Positions 4,806 to 49,839 are shown, counted from the stretch's first letter. The stretch is 64,000 nt of DNA from Alloprevotella sp. (GCA_045636405.1 JAZTXL010000003.1:3021-67020), one strand, 5' to 3'. Numbers and translations are program-made. Notes: generated from the sequence alone by a model not told the origin.

Positions 4806-4891
4806 TTTCGAAAGTCTGATCTAGGAAAAACTAGGTCTTAAGAAATTTTTCCTAGGTCTTGCGGAATTTTTCGCAGATCAGACTTTCGAAA
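4806..4891. repeat. 86-bp intergenic element with perfect 17-bp terminal inverted repeats (CTAGGAAAAA family)
   Basis: TTTCGAAAGTCTGATCT (4806-4822) / AGATCAGACTTTCGAAA (4875-4891); reverse complement matches 62773-62858 at 83/86 and also matches 43932-44002. Confidence 0.92.
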
Positions 4892-4934
4892 ACGGGGTCC
4901 GCAGGGCGGCGTTCGCAGGCGTTTATGAAATTTT

Positions 4935-5017
4935 GTAACGAGCCATGTTACAATGTGTAACTTCCCATGTTACGAAGTGTAACATGCCATGTTACAAGTT
5001 GTAACACGCCGTGTTAC
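4935..5017. repeat. Tandem array of 4 palindromic 22-bp units GTAAC-N7-GTTAC-N5
   Basis: GTAAC at 4935, 4957, 4979, 5001, each followed 7 nt later by GTTAC. Confidence 0.95.
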
Positions 5018-5100: not shown

Positions 5101-5168
5101 GTTTCTTTGTAGCTTTCTAGGAAAAAACAGTAAGCTACAAATTCTCTCCTAGCGAGCTACGAAGTAAC
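5101..5168. repeat. CTAGGAAAAA-family element (68 bp)
   Basis: Imperfect terminal IR GTTTCTTTGTAGCT / AGCTACGAAGTAAC; internal CTAGGAAAAA at 5117; reverse complement resembles 43993-44040. Confidence 0.7.
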
Positions 5169-5232
5169 GGCTCAAGATGACCGTAGATTTTCAGAAGGTT
5201 ACGAAGCCCAAGAGAGGTCCACTTTTCGCGGC

Positions 5233-37240: not shown

Positions 37241-37356
37241 TGTCGCTCTGCGCCGCTCGCTGCTTTCTGGCTCTTGTGAGAACTCTTCTTGCGCCGCCTC
37301 CTTTCAGAGCAGCCTAAACTGCCAACTTTTTTCAGTACACCTCAGTTTGGCTTTTT

Positions 37357-37483
37357 GTAACAAGCCATGTTATACGATATAACGAGCCATGTTACATGTT
37401 GTAACGAGCCGCGTTACATGTTGTAACAAGCCATGTTACATGTTGTAACGAGCCATGTTACATGTTGTAACAAGCCGCGTTAC
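37357..37483. repeat. Tandem array of 6 palindromic 22-bp units GTAAC-N7-GTTAC-N5 (largest, most homogeneous)
   Basis: Unit starts at 37357, 37379 (ATAAC), 37401, 37423, 37445, 37467; consensus GTAAC RAGCCRY GTTAC ATGTT. Confidence 0.96.
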
Positions 37484-43797: not shown

Positions 43798-43823
43798 TCT
43801 CTTTTGAGATTCCGCAAATATTG

Positions 43824-43858
43824 GTTCCGCTGCCCGCTTGGGTGGCGGAACTTTTTTT
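43824..43858 (+). terminator. Intrinsic terminator
   Basis: GTTCCGCTGCCC-GCTT-GGGTGGCGGAAC followed by a T7 tract. Confidence 0.8.
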
Positions 43859-43879
43859 GTGTCCTCGCAGCTCCTCGCG

Positions 43880-44040
43880 AGCCATTTTTTGCCTTTGTAA
43901 TTGTCTGAAAATCAGTAGGCATTTTTGGGCGTTTCGAAAGTCTGATCTACGAAAAATTCCGCAAGACCTAGGAAAAATTTCTTAAGACCTAGTTTTTCCT
44001 AGAAAGCTACTAGTTTTTCCTAGTAGCTTACTAAGAAATG
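43880..44040. repeat. Composite CTAGGAAAAA-family element; 43892-44002 is identical to 62733-62843
   Basis: Left module CCTTTGTAATTGTCTGAAAATCAGTAGGC, core TTTCGAAAGTCTGATCT..., tail GTAGCTTACTAAGAAATG; 111/111 identity by manual alignment. Confidence 0.93.
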
Positions 44041-44148
44041 GCAGGTGGTTGGCCGCTCTTCTGAAGCCGATGCCGGCATTTTCCTGCCGCCTTCTGGTGG
44101 AGCGTAGGAAATAGCCGAGTGCGTGCCGCCTTATCTGTTACTTTTGCC

Positions 44149-44156
44149 TATCTTTG
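44149..44156 (+). promoter_or_regulatory. -7 box (TATCTTTG)
   Basis: TAnnTTTG 26 nt upstream of ATG 44183. Confidence 0.6.
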
Positions 44157-44182
44157 CAAAAATTAATAAATTCCAATAAGCT

Positions 44183-44914
44183 ATGAAGAAAATCAAGACT
44201 CTCATTCTCCTGGCGCTGCTCTGCTTTGTGAGCGGACTCTCAGCGCAGACAGTTGCCAACACCACCGCCTCCGAAGAAGAGATGGTGACCATCGAAGTAA
44301 AAGGCAGCGGTGGCTACGCCTATGTGGGCGAAGGCACAGACCGCAAGGTGAAAGTGGCCAAAGGCACCGTGGTGTATGTGAGAGCCGAAGCGCTGGAAGG
44401 CTCCGGTAAGAAATTTGCCTATTGGACCACCAAAAACACCATGGCCAGCGGTAAAGGTATCATCGAGACCAACAAAAACCCCTATGAATTTGTGGCTACG
44501 GAAAACATAGCTCTCTATGTGAACTTCGTAGCTGAGGATACCGACCTCAATGTGGTGGTAGAGGCTGCCACAACTCCCGGCGGAACAGCTTCTGTTAATG
44601 GATTCGAGTCGCTCAAGGTGGCCTTAGGCGCCGAGATTATTCTTTATGCCAGACCCGATGCCGGCTATAAATTTGTGGGTTGGCAGATGGACGACCAGGA
44701 AGAATTAGTGAGCACAGAAGCCCGCTACATCAGCGTGGCACGCGGCGCCAACAAGTTTACCGCCGTCTTTGAGAGCAAAGACCCCACCGGCGTAGGCGCC
44801 GTCACTGCACAGCCGCAGAAGAAGACCATCTACGACCTCGCCGGCCGCCGTGTCAGCAAAGCAAAAGCCCCCGGCGTTTACGTAGTGAACGGAAAGAAAA
44901 CCCTCGTGCGCTAA
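44183..44914 (+). CDS. Exported protein with two InlB-B-repeat-like (Flg_new-type) domains and a short T9SS-like tail
   Basis: 243 aa; signal peptide; two repeats with GxxFxxW and Y.FV/F.AVF; tail IYDLAGRRVSKAKAPGVYVVNGKK. Confidence 0.7.
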   Translation: MKKIKTLILLALLCFVSGLSAQTVANTTASEEEMVTIEVKGSGGYAYVGEGTDRKVKVAKGTVVYVRAEALEGSGKKFAYWTTKNTMASGKGIIETNKNPYEFVATENIALYVNFVAEDTDLNVVVEAATTPGGTASVNGFESLKVALGAEIILYARPDAGYKFVGWQMDDQEELVSTEARYISVARGANKFTAVFESKDPTGVGAVTAQPQKKTIYDLAGRRVSKAKAPGVYVVNGKKTLVR

Positions 44915-44962
44915 GACTGGCGCTGAGGCATCACCCTATACACATTATTATATAACGCGCGC

Positions 44963-46459
44963 GTGAAACTCAAAGCCCCCAACACCTACGTCATTATCTT
45001 CGGCGTACTGCTTCTTTGTGCCCTCTCCACCTGGTTGGTGCCGGGAGGAAAACCTCAATCCTGGCAAGTGCTCTCAGCTCTCTACGAAGGCTTCAGCCGT
45101 CAGGCCGGCATCATTGCCTTTGTCCTGATTATCGGCGGCGCCTTCTGGTTGATAAACAGCACACGGGCCGTCGACGACGGCATTCTGCGCTTCATCGGCC
45201 GTGTGCGTCGGCTCGAGCGCCATAGCTGGGTGCGTCGTTTGGGAGTGGGCAACATTGTCATCGTCCTTGTGATGCTCCTCTTCGGACTCTTCGGTGCCGT
45301 TTTCGGCATGAGCGAAGAGACCATAGCCTTTGTGGCTGTGGTGCTGCCCTTGGCCCGCTCGCTCGGCTACGACGACTTTGTCGGCGTGTGTATGGTCTAC
45401 CTCGCCGCCCATGTGGGCTTCGCCGGCGCTATGCTCAATCCCTTTACCATAGGCATTGCGCAGGACATGTCCGGGCTGCCGCTTTTCTCCGGCATAGAAT
45501 ACCGCACGCTCTGCTGGGTGGTGGTCATGACGCTGGCCATTGCCTTTGTGCTCTGGTACGCCCACGGCCATCGCCGCGAGGTGAGCGGCGAGCAACAGCA
45601 ACCGCTGGCCGTGGAGGCCGAAGTCGCAGAAGAGCGTCCCGGCAAGCGTCCGTGGATTTGTCTCGCCTTGCTCTCGCTCGTCCTCTTGGCGTTCTGCTAC
45701 CTTTATAGCGCCGACTGCCTCATCAAGGTGGGCAGTGTGCAATGGCATGCCCCTTATCTGCTCTGGCTGGTGACTGCCGCTTTTGTGGTAGCTTCCGTAG
45801 TGGCGCTCAGAGTGTCCCACCGCATGTTCATCCTCACCCTCTTGCTCTTCTCCATCGTCTACCTCGTGCTGGGTGCTATGGGCTACGGCTGGTATCTTCC
45901 GGAGATATGCGCCCTGTTTATGGCGCTGGGCATCTGCGCCGGATTCAGTGCCGGATATAGTGCCGACAAGGTGGCGCAAGAGTTTGTGGCCGGCGCCAAG
46001 GATATCTTCTCGGCCGCCCTCATCATCGGCTTTGCCGCCGGCATTATTGTGGTGCTCGAGAACGGCGAGGTCATCGACACGATGCTGCGCTCCATGGCCG
46101 ACAGCCTTGTGGCAACGGGCCGCGAAGGCGCACTGGCCACGATGTATGGCATACAGACCGTCATCAATGTATTCATCCCCTCCGCCTCGGCCAAGGCTGC
46201 CGTCACGATGCCCATTATGGCACCATTTTCCGACATGATAGGCGTGTCGCGCCAGGCCACGGTGCTCGCTTTCCAGTTTGGCGATGGCATCACCAACATG
46301 ATTACGCCCTGCTCCGGCGTGCTGATAGCCGTCTTGTCGATAGCAAAAATCCCCTACGAGCAGTGGGTGAAGTTCATCTGGAAGTTCATTCTCCTCTTGA
46401 TGCTGGTAGGGCTGCTCCTGTTGTTGCCCACGCTTTATTTCCCCTTACCGGGATTCTAA
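44963..46459 (+). CDS. YfcC-family (DcuC/ArcD-like) membrane transporter
   Basis: 498 aa, GTG start; GAVFGMSEETIAF, GFAGAMLNPFTIGIAQ, FIPSASAKA, AFQFGDGITNMITP. Confidence 0.9.
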   Translation: MKLKAPNTYVIIFGVLLLCALSTWLVPGGKPQSWQVLSALYEGFSRQAGIIAFVLIIGGAFWLINSTRAVDDGILRFIGRVRRLERHSWVRRLGVGNIVIVLVMLLFGLFGAVFGMSEETIAFVAVVLPLARSLGYDDFVGVCMVYLAAHVGFAGAMLNPFTIGIAQDMSGLPLFSGIEYRTLCWVVVMTLAIAFVLWYAHGHRREVSGEQQQPLAVEAEVAEERPGKRPWICLALLSLVLLAFCYLYSADCLIKVGSVQWHAPYLLWLVTAAFVVASVVALRVSHRMFILTLLLFSIVYLVLGAMGYGWYLPEICALFMALGICAGFSAGYSADKVAQEFVAGAKDIFSAALIIGFAAGIIVVLENGEVIDTMLRSMADSLVATGREGALATMYGIQTVINVFIPSASAKAAVTMPIMAPFSDMIGVSRQATVLAFQFGDGITNMITPCSGVLIAVLSIAKIPYEQWVKFIWKFILLLMLVGLLLLLPTLYFPLPGF

Positions 46460-46487
46460 GAGCAAAGCCATCACTGCTTTTTATACT

Positions 46488-46587
46488 GCCATTTTTGCCT
46501 TTTGTAATCCCTTGAAAATCAATGGCTATTTTGGGGCGTTTCTTAGGTAAAAGCTAGGTGAATTTCGGTAACTACTAAGAAAATGGC
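46488..46587. repeat. Degenerate member of the intergenic element family (left module plus TTTCTTAG/CTAAGAAA core)
   Basis: GCCATTTTTGCCTTTTGTAATCCCTTGAAAATCAATGGC aligns with 43880-43931; short IR at 46539-46546 / 46575-46582. Confidence 0.7.
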
Positions 46588-46686
46588 CGTGATGTAGGGC
46601 AAAAAAGTTAATAATTATTGACTTTTTATTTTTTATAGAAAAAGAATAATTAAATTGCGCCATCTAACCTTTATAAATTAAAAGAT

Positions 46687-47880
46687 ATGGAAAAAAGAGT
46701 ATTTTTTATTATGTTTTTAATGTTTTTATCATTAGGAGTCTTTGCTCAATTATCTGTAAATTCTTCGGGTAAAGTTTCAATTTCTAATAATGGTTATAGA
46801 GTATTAGATATTAGTGGTAAAAACCAAAATATTTATGCTGTTCGTACAGGGAATGCTTCTTCTAGTGCGATAGCTACTATTACTGGTATTTGTGATAAAG
46901 ATGGAATACCTACAAGTATTGGTGTTGAAGGAACATCTGTGTCTTCTTCCTCAACCCAATACTATGATAATCTTAATCGATCCTATGGTGTTATGGGTAC
47001 AGCCGGTCATGGTGGCAATGGTTGGAATTTTGGTGTCTTTGGAAGACTGCAAAATTCCTATGGCGCAGGAATTTATGGATCAGCAATAACCAATGATTGG
47101 GGGAGAAATATTTCCGACCCTTATGCTGGCTATTTTAACGGGAATGTACAAGTGTTGGGAAATGTGCAAGCTACAGGTTCAGTAAGTGGTATTTTACTTG
47201 GTGCGAGTGTATCTCCTACATCTTCAGTTTCTATTTTGGCTGATGATATTAAATCTGAGTCCGTTTCTGATAAGATGGCAAATCTTTCTGTTGTTTCTTA
47301 TTACAAAGAACAGCCTATGGTTTTGACAGAAAACCTAAAAGAAAGTGAGGAAGTTGTTCCTAATTGGATTTCAGAAATAGAACTACAGAGTCTTTCTAAA
47401 AAACATTACGCACTTTCTGCAGAAGAATTAGAAGATGTTTTTCCGGAATTAGTATATACGAATGCAGATAAAAGTAAAAGTATCAACTATGTAGAGATGA
47501 TTCCTTTGTTGTTACAGTCAATAAATGAACTACGTAGTGAAGTTGCTAAATTGAAAGAGGAAAACAATAAGTATTCCAATAAAAAAATGGCTACAGATAT
47601 AAAAGATTGTATCGAAAGTCCTATAGAATTATCTCAAAATAAACCGAATCCTTGGAATGAAAGTACTGAAATTACGCTATCAGTTCCTGAAAGTTTCAAA
47701 AACGCTATAGTTCTGTTCTTTGATTTGAAAGGAAAACAGGTTTTTGAACAAAAGCTATATACTAGTGGAGAACAGAGTTTGAAATTCTATGCAAAAGATT
47801 TTACACCAGGAATATACATATATTCTTTAGTCGTTGATGGAAATCTTGTAGCATCGAAAAAGATGCTAGTACTAAAGTAA
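46687..47880 (+). CDS. Secreted protein with Peptidase_S74-like intramolecular chaperone domain and T9SS C-terminal sorting domain
   Basis: 397 aa; signal peptide; Gly-rich beta repeats (YGVMG, FGVFG, GIYG, YAGYFNGNV); S74-like HYALSAEELEDVFPELV...SINYVEMIPLLLQSINEL; CTD LSQNKPNPWN...PGIYIYSLVVDG...KKMLVLK. Confidence 0.8.
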   Translation: MEKRVFFIMFLMFLSLGVFAQLSVNSSGKVSISNNGYRVLDISGKNQNIYAVRTGNASSSAIATITGICDKDGIPTSIGVEGTSVSSSSTQYYDNLNRSYGVMGTAGHGGNGWNFGVFGRLQNSYGAGIYGSAITNDWGRNISDPYAGYFNGNVQVLGNVQATGSVSGILLGASVSPTSSVSILADDIKSESVSDKMANLSVVSYYKEQPMVLTENLKESEEVVPNWISEIELQSLSKKHYALSAEELEDVFPELVYTNADKSKSINYVEMIPLLLQSINELRSEVAKLKEENNKYSNKKMATDIKDCIESPIELSQNKPNPWNESTEITLSVPESFKNAIVLFFDLKGKQVFEQKLYTSGEQSLKFYAKDFTPGIYIYSLVVDGNLVASKKMLVLK

Positions 47881-47950
47881 TAATTTTTATTGTTGATTAA
47901 ATGATGTTCGAGATACTTAATGATATTGTTTAATTTAAGTATTAGGTTTT

Positions 47951-48526
47951 ATGAAACGTTTTTTATTTATATATATATTCTTATGTATAATACCAAACAT
48001 TATATATTCAAAGAATCTTGTATTTACTCCAGAATTTTCAAAAAAAATTTTTGAAAATGATACTATTTTCTTTGAGAAAAATTCTGTTCCTATAAATGGG
48101 CTATCAATAACGGCAGATATTTTTCAAAAAACAGACAGAAGTTTAATCAGACTTGTTTTAGAAGATATATATGGTAAAGAATATCTTGTTGGGGAATGTA
48201 CAAAGTTCTTGAATGAAAAAGATACAATTTTTTGGAAAGATTATTGTGAAGAAAGTTATAGATTAGAAAATGTAGTTCCAAAGTTCTTAAAGATAATTCT
48301 TGTAGATGCGAGTATATATATAAACAAAATAAATTTTTTAGAGATTACTAACAATACTTTATCTAAGGATTTTGTGGCTAGACAAGATTCTATAAGGAAT
48401 CTTCAAGTAAAAGAAAAAATTAAGTCAATAAATAACTATAATAAAAAACATGGAATTTTGTGGACGGCAGGTATCTCTGATATTGCCCTAAAATCTTATG
48501 CAGAAAAAAAGAATTATTTAATATAG
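47951..48526 (+). CDS. N-terminal (signal/pro-region) fragment of a C1 cysteine protease
   Basis: 191 aa; signal peptide, DYCEES, WTAGISDIALKSYAEKK; reading continues in the -1 frame into the next ORF. Confidence 0.6.
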   Translation: MKRFLFIYIFLCIIPNIIYSKNLVFTPEFSKKIFENDTIFFEKNSVPINGLSITADIFQKTDRSLIRLVLEDIYGKEYLVGECTKFLNEKDTIFWKDYCEESYRLENVVPKFLKIILVDASIYINKINFLEITNNTLSKDFVARQDSIRNLQVKEKIKSINNYNKKHGILWTAGISDIALKSYAEKKNYLI

Positions 48527-48636
48527 AAAGTGATAACTTTGACCTAGGGGGATTTGAATATTATAAATATGGTATTTTTAGTATTCCAACAAACCACCAG
48601 AATGTAAAAAGGAACTCAGAATCTTCTAGAATTTCT

Positions 48637-49839
48637 ATGTATGTAAAAAGTTATGATTGGCGGAATAGGCATGGAAAAAATTGGATAACTGTTCCTAAAG
48701 TACAAGTTGGTAGAACTTGCTGGGCTTTTGCTATTGCTACTTTGACAGAGAGTTATATTAATTTATTTTATAATAAACAATTAAATTATGATTTATCTGA
48801 GCAAGATCTAATAATTAATGGAGGAGTGAATTTCATACCTAGTGTAGGTGGATTTGTAACAGATGCTCTAAATTATATAAAACAAGAAGGAGTTGTTAAA
48901 GAAGAATGTTATCCATTTAGTTTTCCTAATGATTTGTTTGAAAAATGTTCTACGCCTGATGAGATTATTAAGATAGAAGATTATGAAATAAACCCGAATG
49001 TGGCTGAAGCTGAATTAAAAGAACTTCTTTTTAAATATCCTCTTTGTGTTAATCTTTTTTGGCCTGGAAATATTGGACATAGTGTACAACTTGTTGGCTA
49101 TAATCAATTAATGCTAGGAGATAGTATAATGTTAGAATCTTATGATGATACTAATCCTGAATGGACTTATATTGATGAAGATAGTGAATATTTAGGAAAA
49201 ACTTGTTGGATTATTAAGAATTCTTATGGAGAAAATTGGGGCATTGATGGATACGCTTATATCATTACTGATAATTTATTAAGATTACCGACTTCCTATT
49301 CTATTAAAGGAAGAGTTAGTAGCTTGCTTTATGGAAATAATGATGTCCTTTGTACAGATGCTGATGGTGATGGCTTTTATTTTTGGGGAGTAGGAGAAAG
49401 ACCTTTACATTGTCCTTCATGGGCTCCTGATTTTGCTGATGGTGATGATTCTAATTATGAAGTAGGTCCTATGAATGAGTATGGATATTGTATTACTATT
49501 AATCCCAATGGAAACGACAGCTTATTTTCGCCAATCTATGTTTGTGAGGATACTACTTGGACTTCATATAAATATTATCACCAAAATATAATAGTTGAAA
49601 ATTCTGCATGCTTGAATATACAATCAAATACAGATTTTTATAAAGGTACTACAATTTATTTGGCAAGTGGTTCTGTCTTGGTTATAGATGGGGCTATTCT
49701 TAACAATGTAAGAATAGAAGCTGCAAGTGGTAGTAAAATTATTATTAAGAATAATGGTGTGGTAAATTATTGTCCTACTAGTAATTTTATATTACCAATA
49801 GGGGCTGAATTAGATTTGATTCAAGGTTTAATTCATTAA
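48637..49839 (+). CDS. Catalytic fragment of a C1 (papain-like) cysteine protease
   Basis: 400 aa; YDWRNRHG, QVGRTCWAFA (Gln/Cys), DLSEQDL, GHSVQLVGY (His), WIIKNSYGENWGIDGY (Asn). Confidence 0.88.
   Translation: MYVKSYDWRNRHGKNWITVPKVQVGRTCWAFAIATLTESYINLFYNKQLNYDLSEQDLIINGGVNFIPSVGGFVTDALNYIKQEGVVKEECYPFSFPNDLFEKCSTPDEIIKIEDYEINPNVAEAELKELLFKYPLCVNLFWPGNIGHSVQLVGYNQLMLGDSIMLESYDDTNPEWTYIDEDSEYLGKTCWIIKNSYGENWGIDGYAYIITDNLLRLPTSYSIKGRVSSLLYGNNDVLCTDADGDGFYFWGVGERPLHCPSWAPDFADGDDSNYEVGPMNEYGYCITINPNGNDSLFSPIYVCEDTTWTSYKYYHQNIIVENSACLNIQSNTDFYKGTTIYLASGSVLVIDGAILNNVRIEAASGSKIIIKNNGVVNYCPTSNFILPIGAELDLIQGLIH

What the first reader, a model, noticed from the sequence alone, without database searches (positions are those of the whole stretch)
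4806..4891. 86-bp element with 17-bp perfect terminal inverted repeats and an internal 21-bp phased A-tract repeat
Nearly full copies occur at 4806 (reverse), 43932, 54578 and 62773; 4806-4891 and 62773-62858 differ at 3 of 86 positions. The interior is two 21-bp units (TACGAAAAATTCCGCAAGACC / TAGGAAAAATTTCTTAAGACC) followed by an inverted CTAG-TTTTTCCTAG. Chimeric relatives lie at 5101, 19330, 25626, 46539 and 54405. I count about 16 CTAGGAAAAA/TTTTTCCTAG motifs, all intergenic and often 21 bp apart. CTAG is usually rare in bacterial genomes (established). No target-site duplication is evident. Inference: a MITE-like or REP-like element; A5 tracts two helical turns apart could bend DNA or phase protein binding on one face of the helix.
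Basis: partly seen in the sequence, partly recalled or inferred. Interest (0 to 1): 0.66.

Follow-up and report, generated by a model that had tools for sequence, protein, structure and literature searches.

The report
Phased A-tract brick repeats between genes
The 86-bp element is one module of a roughly 150-copy family of non-coding repeats that sit between genes in an uncultured cattle-gut Bacteroidales bacterium; they are built from 21-bp "bricks" whose A-tracts line up on one face of the helix, and they look like the mosaic repeats known from other bacteria rather than a jumping mini-transposon.

Summary
The 86-bp element, its perfect 17-bp inverted ends, the 21-bp interior units and 16 CTAGGAAAAA motifs (0.2 expected) are all present.

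The element is only the central module of a larger unit. A 40-bp leader (CCTTTGTAAY-N4-TGAAAATCA-...-ATTTTnGGnCG) precedes 2-5 bricks of 21 bp. Each brick is a ~12-nt word plus CTAG plus A5, or the inverse T5CCTAG. Short inverted ends (TTTC...GAAA) close the array. There are at least three subfamilies.

The host is an uncultured bovine-gut Bacteroidales. Read depth suggests about 150 copies per genome, all intergenic.

No target duplication, transposase or empty site was found. Orthologous sites in strains, a sister species and two more distant relatives are all occupied. The arrays differ there by whole bricks: ±21 nt, brick-for-brick swaps or subfamily swaps. A relative at ~75% identity keeps the 21-bp period and A/T runs with an almost wholly different sequence.

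There is no covariation, coding potential or Rfam match.

Under a wedge model, the arrays are the six most curved segments of the window.

Best reading: a BIME/BOX/BrickBuilt-like mosaic repeat that evolves as a dispersed minisatellite and supplies curved DNA at gene boundaries. Function and spreading enzyme are unproven.

The parts
4806..4891 (-). A-type array: the finding itself. 86 bp, four 21-bp-phased bricks, perfect 17-bp inverted ends.
   Evidence: Predicted bend 102 degrees.
4892..4933 (-). Alternative connector (AAATTTCATAAACGCCTGCGAACGCCGCCCTGCGGACCCCGT) that replaces the usual leader in front of the A-type array. Shared with L021 and L022.
   Evidence: alignment A3.
5168..5209 (-). 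Leader of a C-type unit (degenerate). It lies 27 nt after the stop codon of the GH20 gene.
5102..5167 (-). C-type array (words AGCTAC/AGCTTAC), closed by TTACTTCG...CAAAGAAA.
   Evidence: z -2.9.
19332..19417 (+). C-type array without a clear leader. The first two bricks form the terminator-like hairpin GGAGGCTCGCAG-GAAAAA-CTGCGAGCCTCC plus a T-run.
   Evidence: z -7.0; brick swap among strains; orthologous array in L126; bend 123 degrees.
25626..25709 (+). C-type array, TTCTTCGG...CCGAAGAA, next to the 3' end of the alanyl-tRNA synthetase gene.
   Evidence: 98% identical in L027; orthologous array in L126.
43891..43931 (+). Leader (GCCTTTGTAATTGTCTGAAAATCAGTAGGCATTTTTGGGCG).
43932..44043 (+). 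Chimeric array. A-type bricks run to 44002, then C-type bricks to ...CTAAGAAATGG. The join is at the shared TTTTTCCTAG motif.
   Evidence: Highest predicted bend in the window, 128 degrees.
46498..46538 (+). Leader of the B-type unit.
46539..46583 (+). B-type array (word GGTAACTAC). Two bricks (42 nt) shorter than its orthologue in L014.
   Evidence: z +0.6, no hairpin; bend 121 degrees.
54365..54404 (+). Leader, 186 nt downstream of the L21-L27 ribosomal protein operon. Two very different alleles occur among strains.
54405..54448 (+). Short C-type array. It lacks one 21-nt brick that the other strains covering that stretch carry (5 of the 6; L114 is disrupted there by an unrelated insertion).
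54573..54658 (+). A-type array with a degenerate left end and a direct-type last brick, so no right inverted end. It is 100% identical in four strains.
   Evidence: bend 113 degrees.
62733..62772 (+). Leader, identical to 43892-43931.
62773..62858 (+). A-type array, 156 nt upstream of (and divergent from) the MatE gene. A 21-bp array occupies the same site in L128.
   Evidence: z -5.7; bend 117 degrees.

Best explanation
The 86-bp element is the 'A-type' array of a lineage-specific, high-copy family of mosaic, non-coding, non-autonomous intergenic repeats. The host is an uncultured bovine-gut Bacteroidales related to Alloprevotella and Pseudoprevotella.

A full unit has three parts:
- a 40-bp leader;
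- 2-5 'bricks' of exactly 21 bp, each a ~12-nt word plus CTAG plus A5, or the same brick inverted;
- short complementary ends (TTTC...GAAA).

Shown:
- The family has about 150 copies and sits only between genes, often just after terminators.
- It changes by whole-brick gain, loss and replacement, and by exchange of arrays and leaders between copies. The shared 10-nt motif serves as the recombination joint. In other words it behaves as a dispersed minisatellite homogenised by gene conversion or template switching.
- The same intergenic sites stay occupied across lineages while the sequence turns over.

Inferred:
- The property that all subfamilies share and that evolution preserves is helical phasing of the A/T tracts: 21 bp is two turns, either strand will do, and indels come only in multiples of 21.
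- Each array would therefore be an intrinsically curved, anisotropically flexible stretch of duplex DNA at a gene boundary.
- I take this to be how it acts. It would be an architectural DNA module, a bent site favoured by nucleoid or topology proteins or by plectoneme tips, comparable to what BIMEs do in enterobacteria. Hairpins in read-through transcripts would be a side effect.
- The enzyme or process that homogenises the copies is unknown.
For: Anatomy and subfamilies.

Copy number: summed contig depth is 1085-1328 over the element against 6.9-8.7 on single-copy flanks in four runs, and about 150 contigs break at the element.

Location: all 28 leader-bearing copies are intergenic. 18 of 28 are co-oriented with the upstream gene, typically 80-100 nt after its stop. 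Flanking genes are unrelated housekeeping genes; 56 Pfam families were found and none recurs.

Brick dynamics:
- The window lacks one 21-nt brick at 54405 that the other strains covering that stretch carry, and the leader there has two divergent alleles on near-identical flanks.
- One brick is swapped for another in 3 of 10 strains that are ~99% identical.
- The window has 42 nt fewer than L014 at 46539, and a different subfamily from L014 at 43932.
- The chimera at 44002 joins at TTTTTCCTAG.

Site conservation with sequence turnover:
- L027 at ~94% identity and L014 at ~86%.
- L126 at ~80% carries arrays with CTAAGAAAAA at both alignable sites.
- L128 at ~75% carries 21-bp arrays at the MatE-upstream site and the site downstream of the 215-aa gene. 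It has only 1 CTAG in 20 kb.

Phasing and curvature:
- The six highest predicted bends in 64 kb are arrays of subfamilies A, B and C, at 102-128 degrees. The background mean is 31 and the 99th percentile 84.5.
- 25 of 27 units in the window and related loci reach the 95th percentile; the median is 118 degrees.
- Adding 5 bp between bricks in silico drops the bend from 97 to about 38 degrees.
- The B subfamily is curved although it has no hairpin (z +0.6).
Against: Curvature is predicted, not measured. It comes from a wedge model whose parameters I recalled from Bolshoy and Trifonov.

Any 21-bp tandem repeat that contains an A-tract would score as curved, so the bend could be a by-product of the repeat.

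The L128 arrays reach only 22-71 degrees. Two short window arrays reach only about 55 degrees.

No binding protein is known.

Near-identity of about 150 copies needs a copying process that I did not identify.

The conserved leader blocks (CCTTTGTAA, TGAAAATCA) are not explained by curvature.

The element is present in metatranscriptome contigs, so RNA-level roles are not excluded.
Confidence: 0.5

Rival explanations
1. Classical MITE. The 86-bp module, or the leader plus array, is a deletion derivative of an insertion sequence. A transposase supplied in trans recognises the inverted ends and moves it by cut-and-paste.
For: - Inverted ends of 17 bp and high copy number.
- The A module occurs behind two different upstream connectors, as if it were a discrete cassette.
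- Its ends, and the leader start (G)CCTTTGTAA, loosely resemble the IS5-type ends GAGACCTTTGCA of BrickBuilt and ISPg1 (PMC4596501).
- An unrelated insertion has landed in or near the array in two strains (L111, L114), so the region does tolerate insertions.
Against: - No target-site duplication.
- No empty site at any of the orthologous sites compared, across five levels of divergence.
- Mismatches in the inverted ends are frequent and uncompensated.
- The B subfamily has only an 8-bp closing helix.
- No transposase in the window or next to 31 copies.
- No match of the end in viral contigs.
- In the resemblance to IS5 ends the orientation is inverted, so it is weak.
Confidence: 0.12
2. REP/REPIN-type system. 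A single-copy domesticated Y1 (RAYT-like) transposase, encoded elsewhere in the genome, copies the arrays on single-stranded DNA. This would explain occupied sites being overwritten with lineage-specific sequence.
For: - Site conservation combined with genome-wide, lineage-specific sequence turnover.
- High copy number, placement after terminators and inverted pairs of units.
- Absence of target-site duplication is expected for this mechanism.
Against: - Individual bricks are not hairpins.
- There is no conserved GTAG-plus-GC-rich palindrome like the REPs listed in PMC2817692.
- No RAYT gene was seen, although only about 64 kb plus scattered loci of the genome were available.
- RAYT-associated REPs in that paper are all from Proteobacteria.
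Confidence: 0.13
3. RNA-level element. Either the leader is a promoter and the array a small structured RNA, giving a multi-copy sRNA family or protein sponge with repeated AGGAAAAA. Or the array is a 3'-UTR hairpin that stabilises or terminates the upstream transcript.
For: - A and C arrays fold strongly: z -5.7, -5.2, -7.0.
- At 19339 the first bricks form a canonical hairpin plus T-run terminator, conserved in L126.
- The leader has TTTG...TTTG roughly at Bacteroidetes -33/-7 spacing.
- 18 of 28 copies are co-oriented with the upstream gene.
- The element lies inside metatranscriptome contigs of 0.9-1.6 kb at depth 10-56.
- BrickBuilt segments show promoter activity (PMC4596501).
Against: - No covariation: score 0.020 against 0.017 in shuffles, and six pairs vary only by breaking.
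- B arrays are unstructured: z +0.6 and -1.4.
- A5 and T5 interchange freely, which is not neutral for an RNA.
- No leader matches TTTG-N17-23-TAnnTTTG, and about a third of leaders lack the second TTTG.
- No terminator follows the array.
- No Rfam match, even at E up to 10.
- The RNA contigs are long read-throughs, not discrete small RNAs, and could include DNA carry-over.
Confidence: 0.15
4. Neutral by-product. The arrays are ordinary minisatellites that arose from terminator T-runs by slippage and have no function. Their similarity reflects common descent only.
For: - Arrays abut terminators.
- Evolution is dominated by slippage-like changes of whole units.
Against: - About 150 dispersed copies are 92-100% identical, including between genomes whose flanking genes are only 86-94% identical.
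- The A array is invariant in four strains while the adjacent spacer carries SNPs.
- Period 21 is kept in three lineages with different sequences.
- The leader has sharply defined conserved blocks.
Confidence: 0.1

Closest known systems
BrickBuilt MITE/minisatellite of Porphyromonas gingivalis (Klein et al. 2015, PMC4596501)
   Same: - Same bacterial order.
- Always intergenic.
- Architecture is a 'leader' plus tandem units of about two helical turns without spacers plus a terminal segment.
- Unit number varies between copies and strains.
- Many copies are partial.
- Small inverted ends.
- Restricted host range.
   Different: - Units are 23 nt there and 21 nt here.
- 19 copies there against about 150 here.
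- Leaders and tails reach about 300 nt there; here the leader is 40 nt and there is no tail.
- BrickBuilt has IS5-type 12-bp ends (GAGACCTTTGCA) and some flanking duplications. Here there is no such end, only a loose resemblance, and no duplication.
- Bricks here occur in both orientations and carry a phased A-tract.
- No sequence homology could be tested, because the paper text gives only the ends.
BOX elements of Streptococcus pneumoniae (boxA-boxB(n)-boxC; Croucher et al. 2011, PMC3049150)
   Same: - Composite intergenic repeat: a 5' module, a variable number of tandem internal modules and a complementary 3' end.
- High copy number.
- No clear mobilising enzyme, and apparently dormant.
- Frequently co-transcribed as untranslated adducts.
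   Different: - boxB is longer, about 45 nt (from memory), is not phased to the helix and has no A-tract.
- boxA and boxC are long and pair with each other.
- The phylum is different and the sequence unrelated.
- BOX spread in a burst, whereas the sites here are old and stably occupied.
REP/BIME of enterobacteria and pseudomonads, with RAYT transposases (Nunvar et al. 2010, PMC2817692)
   Same: - Hundreds of copies, extragenic, often after terminators.
- Mosaic clusters of units in alternating orientation.
- Species-specific sequence at conserved intergenic sites (from memory).
- No target duplication.
- Proposed architectural roles such as gyrase and IHF binding (established for BIMEs).
   Different: - REP units are 20-40-nt GC-rich imperfect palindromes headed by GTAG. 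The bricks here are not palindromes and carry CTAG plus A5.
- No RAYT was identified.
- The strict 21-bp register and leader have no REP counterpart.
Correia elements (CREE) of Neisseria
   Same: About 100-150-bp intergenic repeats with inverted ends, high copy number, an internal protein-bending (IHF) site, and effects through hairpins in transcripts (established knowledge, also summarised in PMC3049150).
   Different: - Correia elements have 26-bp ends and a TA target duplication, and show presence/absence polymorphism.
- None of these is seen here.
- They have no internal phased tandem units.

Membership tests
MITE | Terminal inverted repeats at both ends of the element | tested here: inconclusive
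   A modules have 17-bp ends, but 6 of 17 pairs are broken in some copies. B arrays have only an 8-bp closing helix. The full unit (leader plus array) has no inverted ends.
MITE | Target-site duplication flanking the element | tested here: not met
   No direct repeat flanks any of 15 A modules or 28 leader-bearing units.
MITE | Presence/absence (empty-site) polymorphism between related genomes | tested here: not met
   All orthologous sites examined are occupied: strains, L027, L014, L126 and L128.
MITE | A related autonomous IS with the same ends in the same host | tested here: inconclusive
   None was found in the window (Pfam), among 31 flanking genes or in viral contigs. The whole genome and ISfinder were not available.
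REP/BIME | Unit is a 20-40-nt imperfect palindrome with a conserved 5' GTAG-type tetranucleotide | tested here: not met
   Single bricks do not fold. The constant part is CTAG plus A5. See the REP list in PMC2817692.
REP/BIME | High copy number, strictly extragenic, mosaic clusters with units in both orientations | tested here: met
   About 150 copy-equivalents. All copies are intergenic. Direct and inverted bricks and chimeric arrays occur.
REP/BIME | Cognate RAYT (Y1 transposase) gene in the genome | not testable with these tools
   Only 64 kb plus scattered loci of the lineage were available.
BOX-type composite repeat | 5' module, then a variable number of tandem internal modules, then a complementary 3' module | tested here: met
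   Leader plus 2-5 bricks plus closing TTTC.../...GAAA. Brick number varies between orthologues. This is a likeness of architecture only; there is no sequence relationship.
BrickBuilt | 23-nt tandem repeat with IS5-type ends GAGACCTTTGCA / TGCAAAGGTCTC | tested here: not met
   The period here is 21. The ends are TTTCGAAAG.../TTTCTTAG.... There is only a loose likeness, (G)CCTTTGTAA at the leader start.
Known RNA family (Rfam 15) | Match to a covariance model | tested here: not met
   No hit at gathering threshold in the window. Only chance-level hits with E at or above 0.47 over 43800-46700.
Intrinsically curved DNA (phased A-tracts) | A-tracts of at least 4-5 bp repeated in phase with the helix, giving a large predicted or measured bend | tested here: met
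   A5/T5 recurs every 21 bp. Predicted bends are 102-128 degrees per 100 bp, the top six in the window. 25 of 27 units reach the 95th percentile, and a +5 bp phase shift abolishes the bend. This is prediction only; no gel measurement exists.

The most novel reading that the evidence does not exclude
The arrays are binding platforms of a chromosome-architecture system peculiar to this Bacteroidales clade. A lineage-specific DNA-bending or wrapping protein, or a domesticated recombinase, would recognise the constant half of each brick on one face of the helix. It would co-evolve with that motif (CTAGGAAAAA here, CTAAGAAAAA in L126, CCTTGAAAAA in L128) and drive genome-wide overwriting of about 150 conserved intergenic sites. 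CTAG would then be tolerated only where this protein needs it.
Probability: 0.2. Interest if true: 0.75.

Novelty: new variant of a known kind. Interest (0 to 1): 0.52.

Why it matters
Small dispersed repeats are well described in Proteobacteria and Firmicutes. Outside P. gingivalis they are barely described in Bacteroidales, the dominant order of gut bacteria.

This family has an unusually explicit grammar: whole 21-bp bricks, either orientation, a strict helical register. That links a repeat family directly to a physical property of DNA.

It also pairs two features that are rarely documented together. Intergenic sites stay occupied over long divergence, while the sequence is replaced in a lineage-specific way across the whole genome.

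If the arrays are architectural sites, they would mark gene or domain boundaries in a group where nucleoid organisation is almost unknown.

Practical consequences:
- The elements break short-read assemblies; about 150 contigs end at them.
- They concentrate the otherwise avoided CTAG.
- Their brick-number polymorphism could serve for strain typing.

Tried and rejected
- **Coding.** Every frame of the arrays has TAG or TAA within about 20 nt on both strands (read directly from the sequence). Rejected.
- **CRISPR-like or toxI-like array.** The period is too short, the 7-8-nt variable parts have low diversity, and there is no conserved neighbouring gene. Rejected.
- **tRNA, tmRNA or Rfam family.** None found.
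- **Leader as a hairpin.** Beyond the palindrome TGA-AAA-TCA, the flanking Y-R position mismatches in 9 of 25 copies. The central AAA is sometimes TTT (L008, L009). Both were judged by eye, and neither supports a structured leader.
- **Leader as a Bacteroidetes promoter.** No leader matches TTTG-N17-23-TAnnTTTG.
- **Metagenome scan with the leader pattern.** 73 hits, all chance; none is followed by an array.
- **Viral contigs.** One chance hit and zero hits.
- **Exact-protein look-ups.** Nothing was found for the Zn-peptidase or the 164-aa phosphoesterase of the window. The L27 and MerR proteins worked.
- **RNA evidence.** Only assembled contigs were available, with no raw stranded reads, so no transcript ends could be read.
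- **IS5-type end resemblance.** It was recalled from the BrickBuilt table. Orientation and identity are too weak to count.
- **Pseudoprevotella muciniphila as a cultured model.** 20 kb around the orthologous gene holds no 21-bp arrays.

Full report
**1. Observation**

Window 4806-4891 is an 86-bp sequence with perfect 17-bp inverted ends, TTTCGAAAGTCTGATCT / AGATCAGACTTTCGAAA. Further copies start at 43932, 54573 and 62773. The copy at 62773 differs from the reverse complement of 4806-4891 at 3 of 86 positions. CTAGGAAAAA occurs 16 times against 0.2 expected, always between genes. Tandem Repeats Finder reports period 21 in these arrays.

CTAG is strongly avoided in the window: 49 observed against 156-249 expected. 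23 of the 49 lie in the ~900 nt covered by these elements.

**2. Anatomy: the element is one module of a larger unit**

A profile search with the sequence upstream of 43932 found 28 copies of a 40-bp 'leader' in the window and in related loci. The leader reads (G)CCTTTGTAAY-N4-TGAAAATCA-N5-ATTTTnGGnCG. Each copy is directly followed by an array.

The arrays are built from 21-bp bricks. A brick is a ~12-nt word that ends in CTAG (sometimes CTAA or CTAC), followed by GAAAAAnn. The same brick can be inverted, giving nnTTTTTC-CTAG-word. Arrays hold 2-5 bricks and are closed by short complementary ends, TTTCGAAAG.../...CTTTCGAAA or TTTCTTAG.../...CTAAGAAA.

There are three subfamilies, distinguished by word:
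- A: GTCTGATCT / AAGACC. This is the finding itself, at 4806, 43932, 54573 and 62773.
- B: GGTAACTAC, at 46539.
- C: AGTTTAC / AGCTAC / GGAGGCTCGC, at 5102, 19332, 25626, 44003 and 54405.

The unit starts sharply at CCTTTGTAA, usually after an A- or T-run. It has no inverted ends as a whole and no target duplication.

The A module also occurs behind a different connector, at window 4892-4933 and in L021 and L022. The array at 43932-44043 is a chimera of A and C bricks joined at the shared TTTTTCCTAG. The family is therefore mosaic.

**3. Host, copy number and distribution**

Flanking genes show a Bacteroidales chromosome: type IX secretion sorting domains, SusC/SusD, GH20, GH85, ThrA, AlaRS, L21/L27. 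Close homologues of one gene are named Bacteroidaceae, Alloprevotella, Pseudoprevotella and Prevotellamassilia by their sources.

The sequence occurs in bovine gut metagenomes.

In four runs that hold a near relative, the summed contig depth over the element is 1085-1328, against 6.9-8.7 on the adjoining single-copy genes. About 150 contigs end at the element. That gives roughly 150 copy-equivalents per genome.

In 185,579 species-representative genomes, the motif pair CTAGGAAAAA-N15-TTTTTCCTAG is concentrated in one MAG, CALCHR01, with 19 loci. There are single contigs in three other MAGs; the rest are chance hits. It is absent from viral contigs. A leader-pattern scan of JGI metagenomes gave only chance hits.

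**4. Context**

All copies are intergenic. Nearly every gap over 300 nt in the window contains one of these arrays or a separate 22-bp array. Orientation is only weakly biased: 18 of 28 are co-oriented with the upstream gene, usually 80-100 nt after its stop and just beyond its terminator, and 11 of 26 are co-oriented with the downstream gene. Neighbouring genes are unrelated housekeeping genes, and no family recurs. There is no transposase or recombinase in the window.

**5. Evolution at orthologous sites**

- **Strains with an identical L27 protein.** The window's array at 54405 lacks exactly one 21-nt brick that is present in five of the six other strains covering that stretch; the sixth, L114, is disrupted there by an unrelated insertion. 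The leader has two very different alleles on otherwise near-identical flanks. The A-type array at 54573-54658 is identical in four strains although the adjacent spacer carries SNPs.
- **Strains ~99% identical at the MerR locus.** The only clustered difference in a 364-nt spacer is the replacement of one brick by another of equal length, in 3 of 10 strains.
- **Sister species CALCHR01.**
  - The site at 25626 is 98% identical.
  - The site at 43891 carries a leader in both genomes, but a different subfamily and one more brick in the window.
  - The site at 46539 has two more bricks in the MAG.
- **L126, ~80% nucleotide identity, 20 kb syntenic.** Both alignable sites carry 21-bp arrays with other words, and with CTAAGAAAAA in place of CTAGGAAAAA. 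The terminator hairpin at the first site is kept, with its loop flipped from GAAAAA to ATTTTT.
- **L128, ~75% identity, GC 56%.** There are four 21-bp arrays in 20 kb, including the sites upstream of MatE and downstream of the 215-aa gene. Their units are GC-rich word plus A5-8/T4-8, and there is only one CTAG in the whole locus. A-like words (AAGGTCTGACCTAA, AAAGTCCGACCTA) persist there.
- **Pseudoprevotella muciniphila, 75% protein identity.** No such arrays in 20 kb.

No empty site was seen anywhere. What is conserved is the site, the 21-bp period and an A/T run per brick on either strand. The sequence itself is replaced in a lineage-specific and genome-wide manner.

**6. RNA, promoter and coding tests**

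- A and C arrays fold strongly as single strands, with z from -2.6 to -7.0. B arrays do not, at +0.6 and -1.4.
- On 14 A modules, 92.9% of cells pair, but there is no covariation: 0.020 against 0.017 in shuffles, with 253 of 500 shuffles as high. Six pairs vary only by breaking.
- There is no Rfam match and no tRNA.
- The leader does not match the Bacteroidetes promoter consensus.
- Stop codons fill all frames of the arrays.
- In metatranscriptome assemblies the element lies inside contigs of 0.9-1.6 kb at depth 10-56. It is therefore co-transcribed with neighbours, or present as DNA carry-over. No stranded raw reads were available.

**7. Curvature**

I used a dinucleotide wedge model with parameters recalled from Bolshoy and Trifonov. 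As a sanity check, A6 phased at 10 bp gave 127 degrees and random sequence gave 12 degrees.

- The six most curved 100-bp segments of the whole window are arrays of all three subfamilies, at 102-128 degrees. The background mean is 31 and the 99th percentile 84.5.
- Of 27 leader-bearing units in the window and related loci, 25 reach the 95th percentile and 23 the 99th. The median is 118 degrees.
- Inserting 5 bp between bricks in silico lowers the A unit from 97 to about 38 degrees.
- The 22-bp GTAAC arrays are not curved, and the L128 arrays only moderately so.

**8. Interpretation**

Firmly established: a high-copy, mosaic, non-coding intergenic repeat family built from 21-bp bricks. It evolves by whole-brick changes and by exchange between copies, at sites that remain occupied for a long time.

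This is not the behaviour of a cut-and-paste MITE. The closest matches in behaviour are BIME/REP clusters; in architecture, BOX and BrickBuilt.

The one property common to subfamilies A, B and C is helical phasing of A-tracts. Orientation flips preserve it, and so does the multiples-of-21 rule for indels. I therefore favour a DNA-level, architectural role as curved or wrappable DNA at gene boundaries, with hairpins in transcripts as a by-product. This step is inference.

Curvature could still be a by-product of tandem repetition. The homogenising mechanism and any binding protein are unknown. Rivals are the MITE, the RAYT-driven REPIN, the RNA element and the neutral minisatellite. Each keeps a probability of roughly 0.1-0.15.

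**9. Novelty**

Searches of the held literature found no description of this family. The closest published analogue in the same order is BrickBuilt (PMC4596501). It differs in period, ends, copy number and the absence of phased A-tracts.

I rate this a new variant of a known kind. It is of moderate interest, mainly for three reasons:
- the explicit link between repeat grammar and DNA geometry;
- the pattern of conserved sites with replaced sequence;
- the concentration of the otherwise avoided CTAG.

Noticed in passing
window 4930-5017, 25388-25480, 37350-37483, 58984-59050 (single unit at 31030-31053): A second intergenic repeat family: tandem 22-bp units, each a small palindrome TGTAAC-N7-GTTACA plus a 5-nt linker, 3-6 units per array. 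It is present in CALCHR01 loci (L021, L022, L027) and absent from L126 and L128. It is not predicted to be curved. The leader of the brick elements contains one TGTAAC half-site.
   Followed up: partly
window 46684-49835: A low-GC (~39%) stretch of about 3.1 kb is absent from the sister MAG: L014 jumps from window 46584 to 49835. It encodes a type IX-secreted protein, a 191-aa protein and a papain-family C1 peptidase, and holds 10 of the window's 49 CTAG sites. It is probably a horizontally acquired island. Identity to L014 is 86% to the left of it and 98.6% to the right.
   Followed up: partly
whole window: GATC is as depleted as CTAG, with observed/expected 0.25. This hints at a GATC-directed restriction or repair pressure. 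The elements also contain GATC, in TGATCT.
   Followed up: no
L111 ~1175-1288 and L114 ~640-879 (orthologues of window ~54230-54440): In two strains the spacer downstream of L27 is interrupted at different points by unrelated sequence that contains GGACAAAAAGTAGGAT. This is probably the end of a mobile element inserted in or near the array.
   Followed up: no
window 54449-54572; L004 ~1090-1230; L009 ~545-690: The ~120-nt spacer between the C-type and A-type arrays (GGGTGTGAGTTAAGGG...GTCGGCACGAC...) is itself repeated at ~77% identity in two other loci. Larger composites (leader, C array, spacer, A array) are therefore also copied as a block.
   Followed up: partly
L126 3314-4588: The relative at ~80% identity has an extra DUF5077/BPSS1860-family gene between the alanyl-tRNA synthetase gene and the 215-aa gene. 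The window lacks it.
   Followed up: no
window 19339-19376 vs L126 ~10975-11012; leaders of L008_3073 and L009_5867: Loops or centres of palindromes are flipped between copies. GAAAAA becomes ATTTTT in a conserved terminator loop, and TGAAAATCA becomes TGATTTTCA in leaders. This is the signature of intrastrand template switching at hairpins.
   Followed up: no
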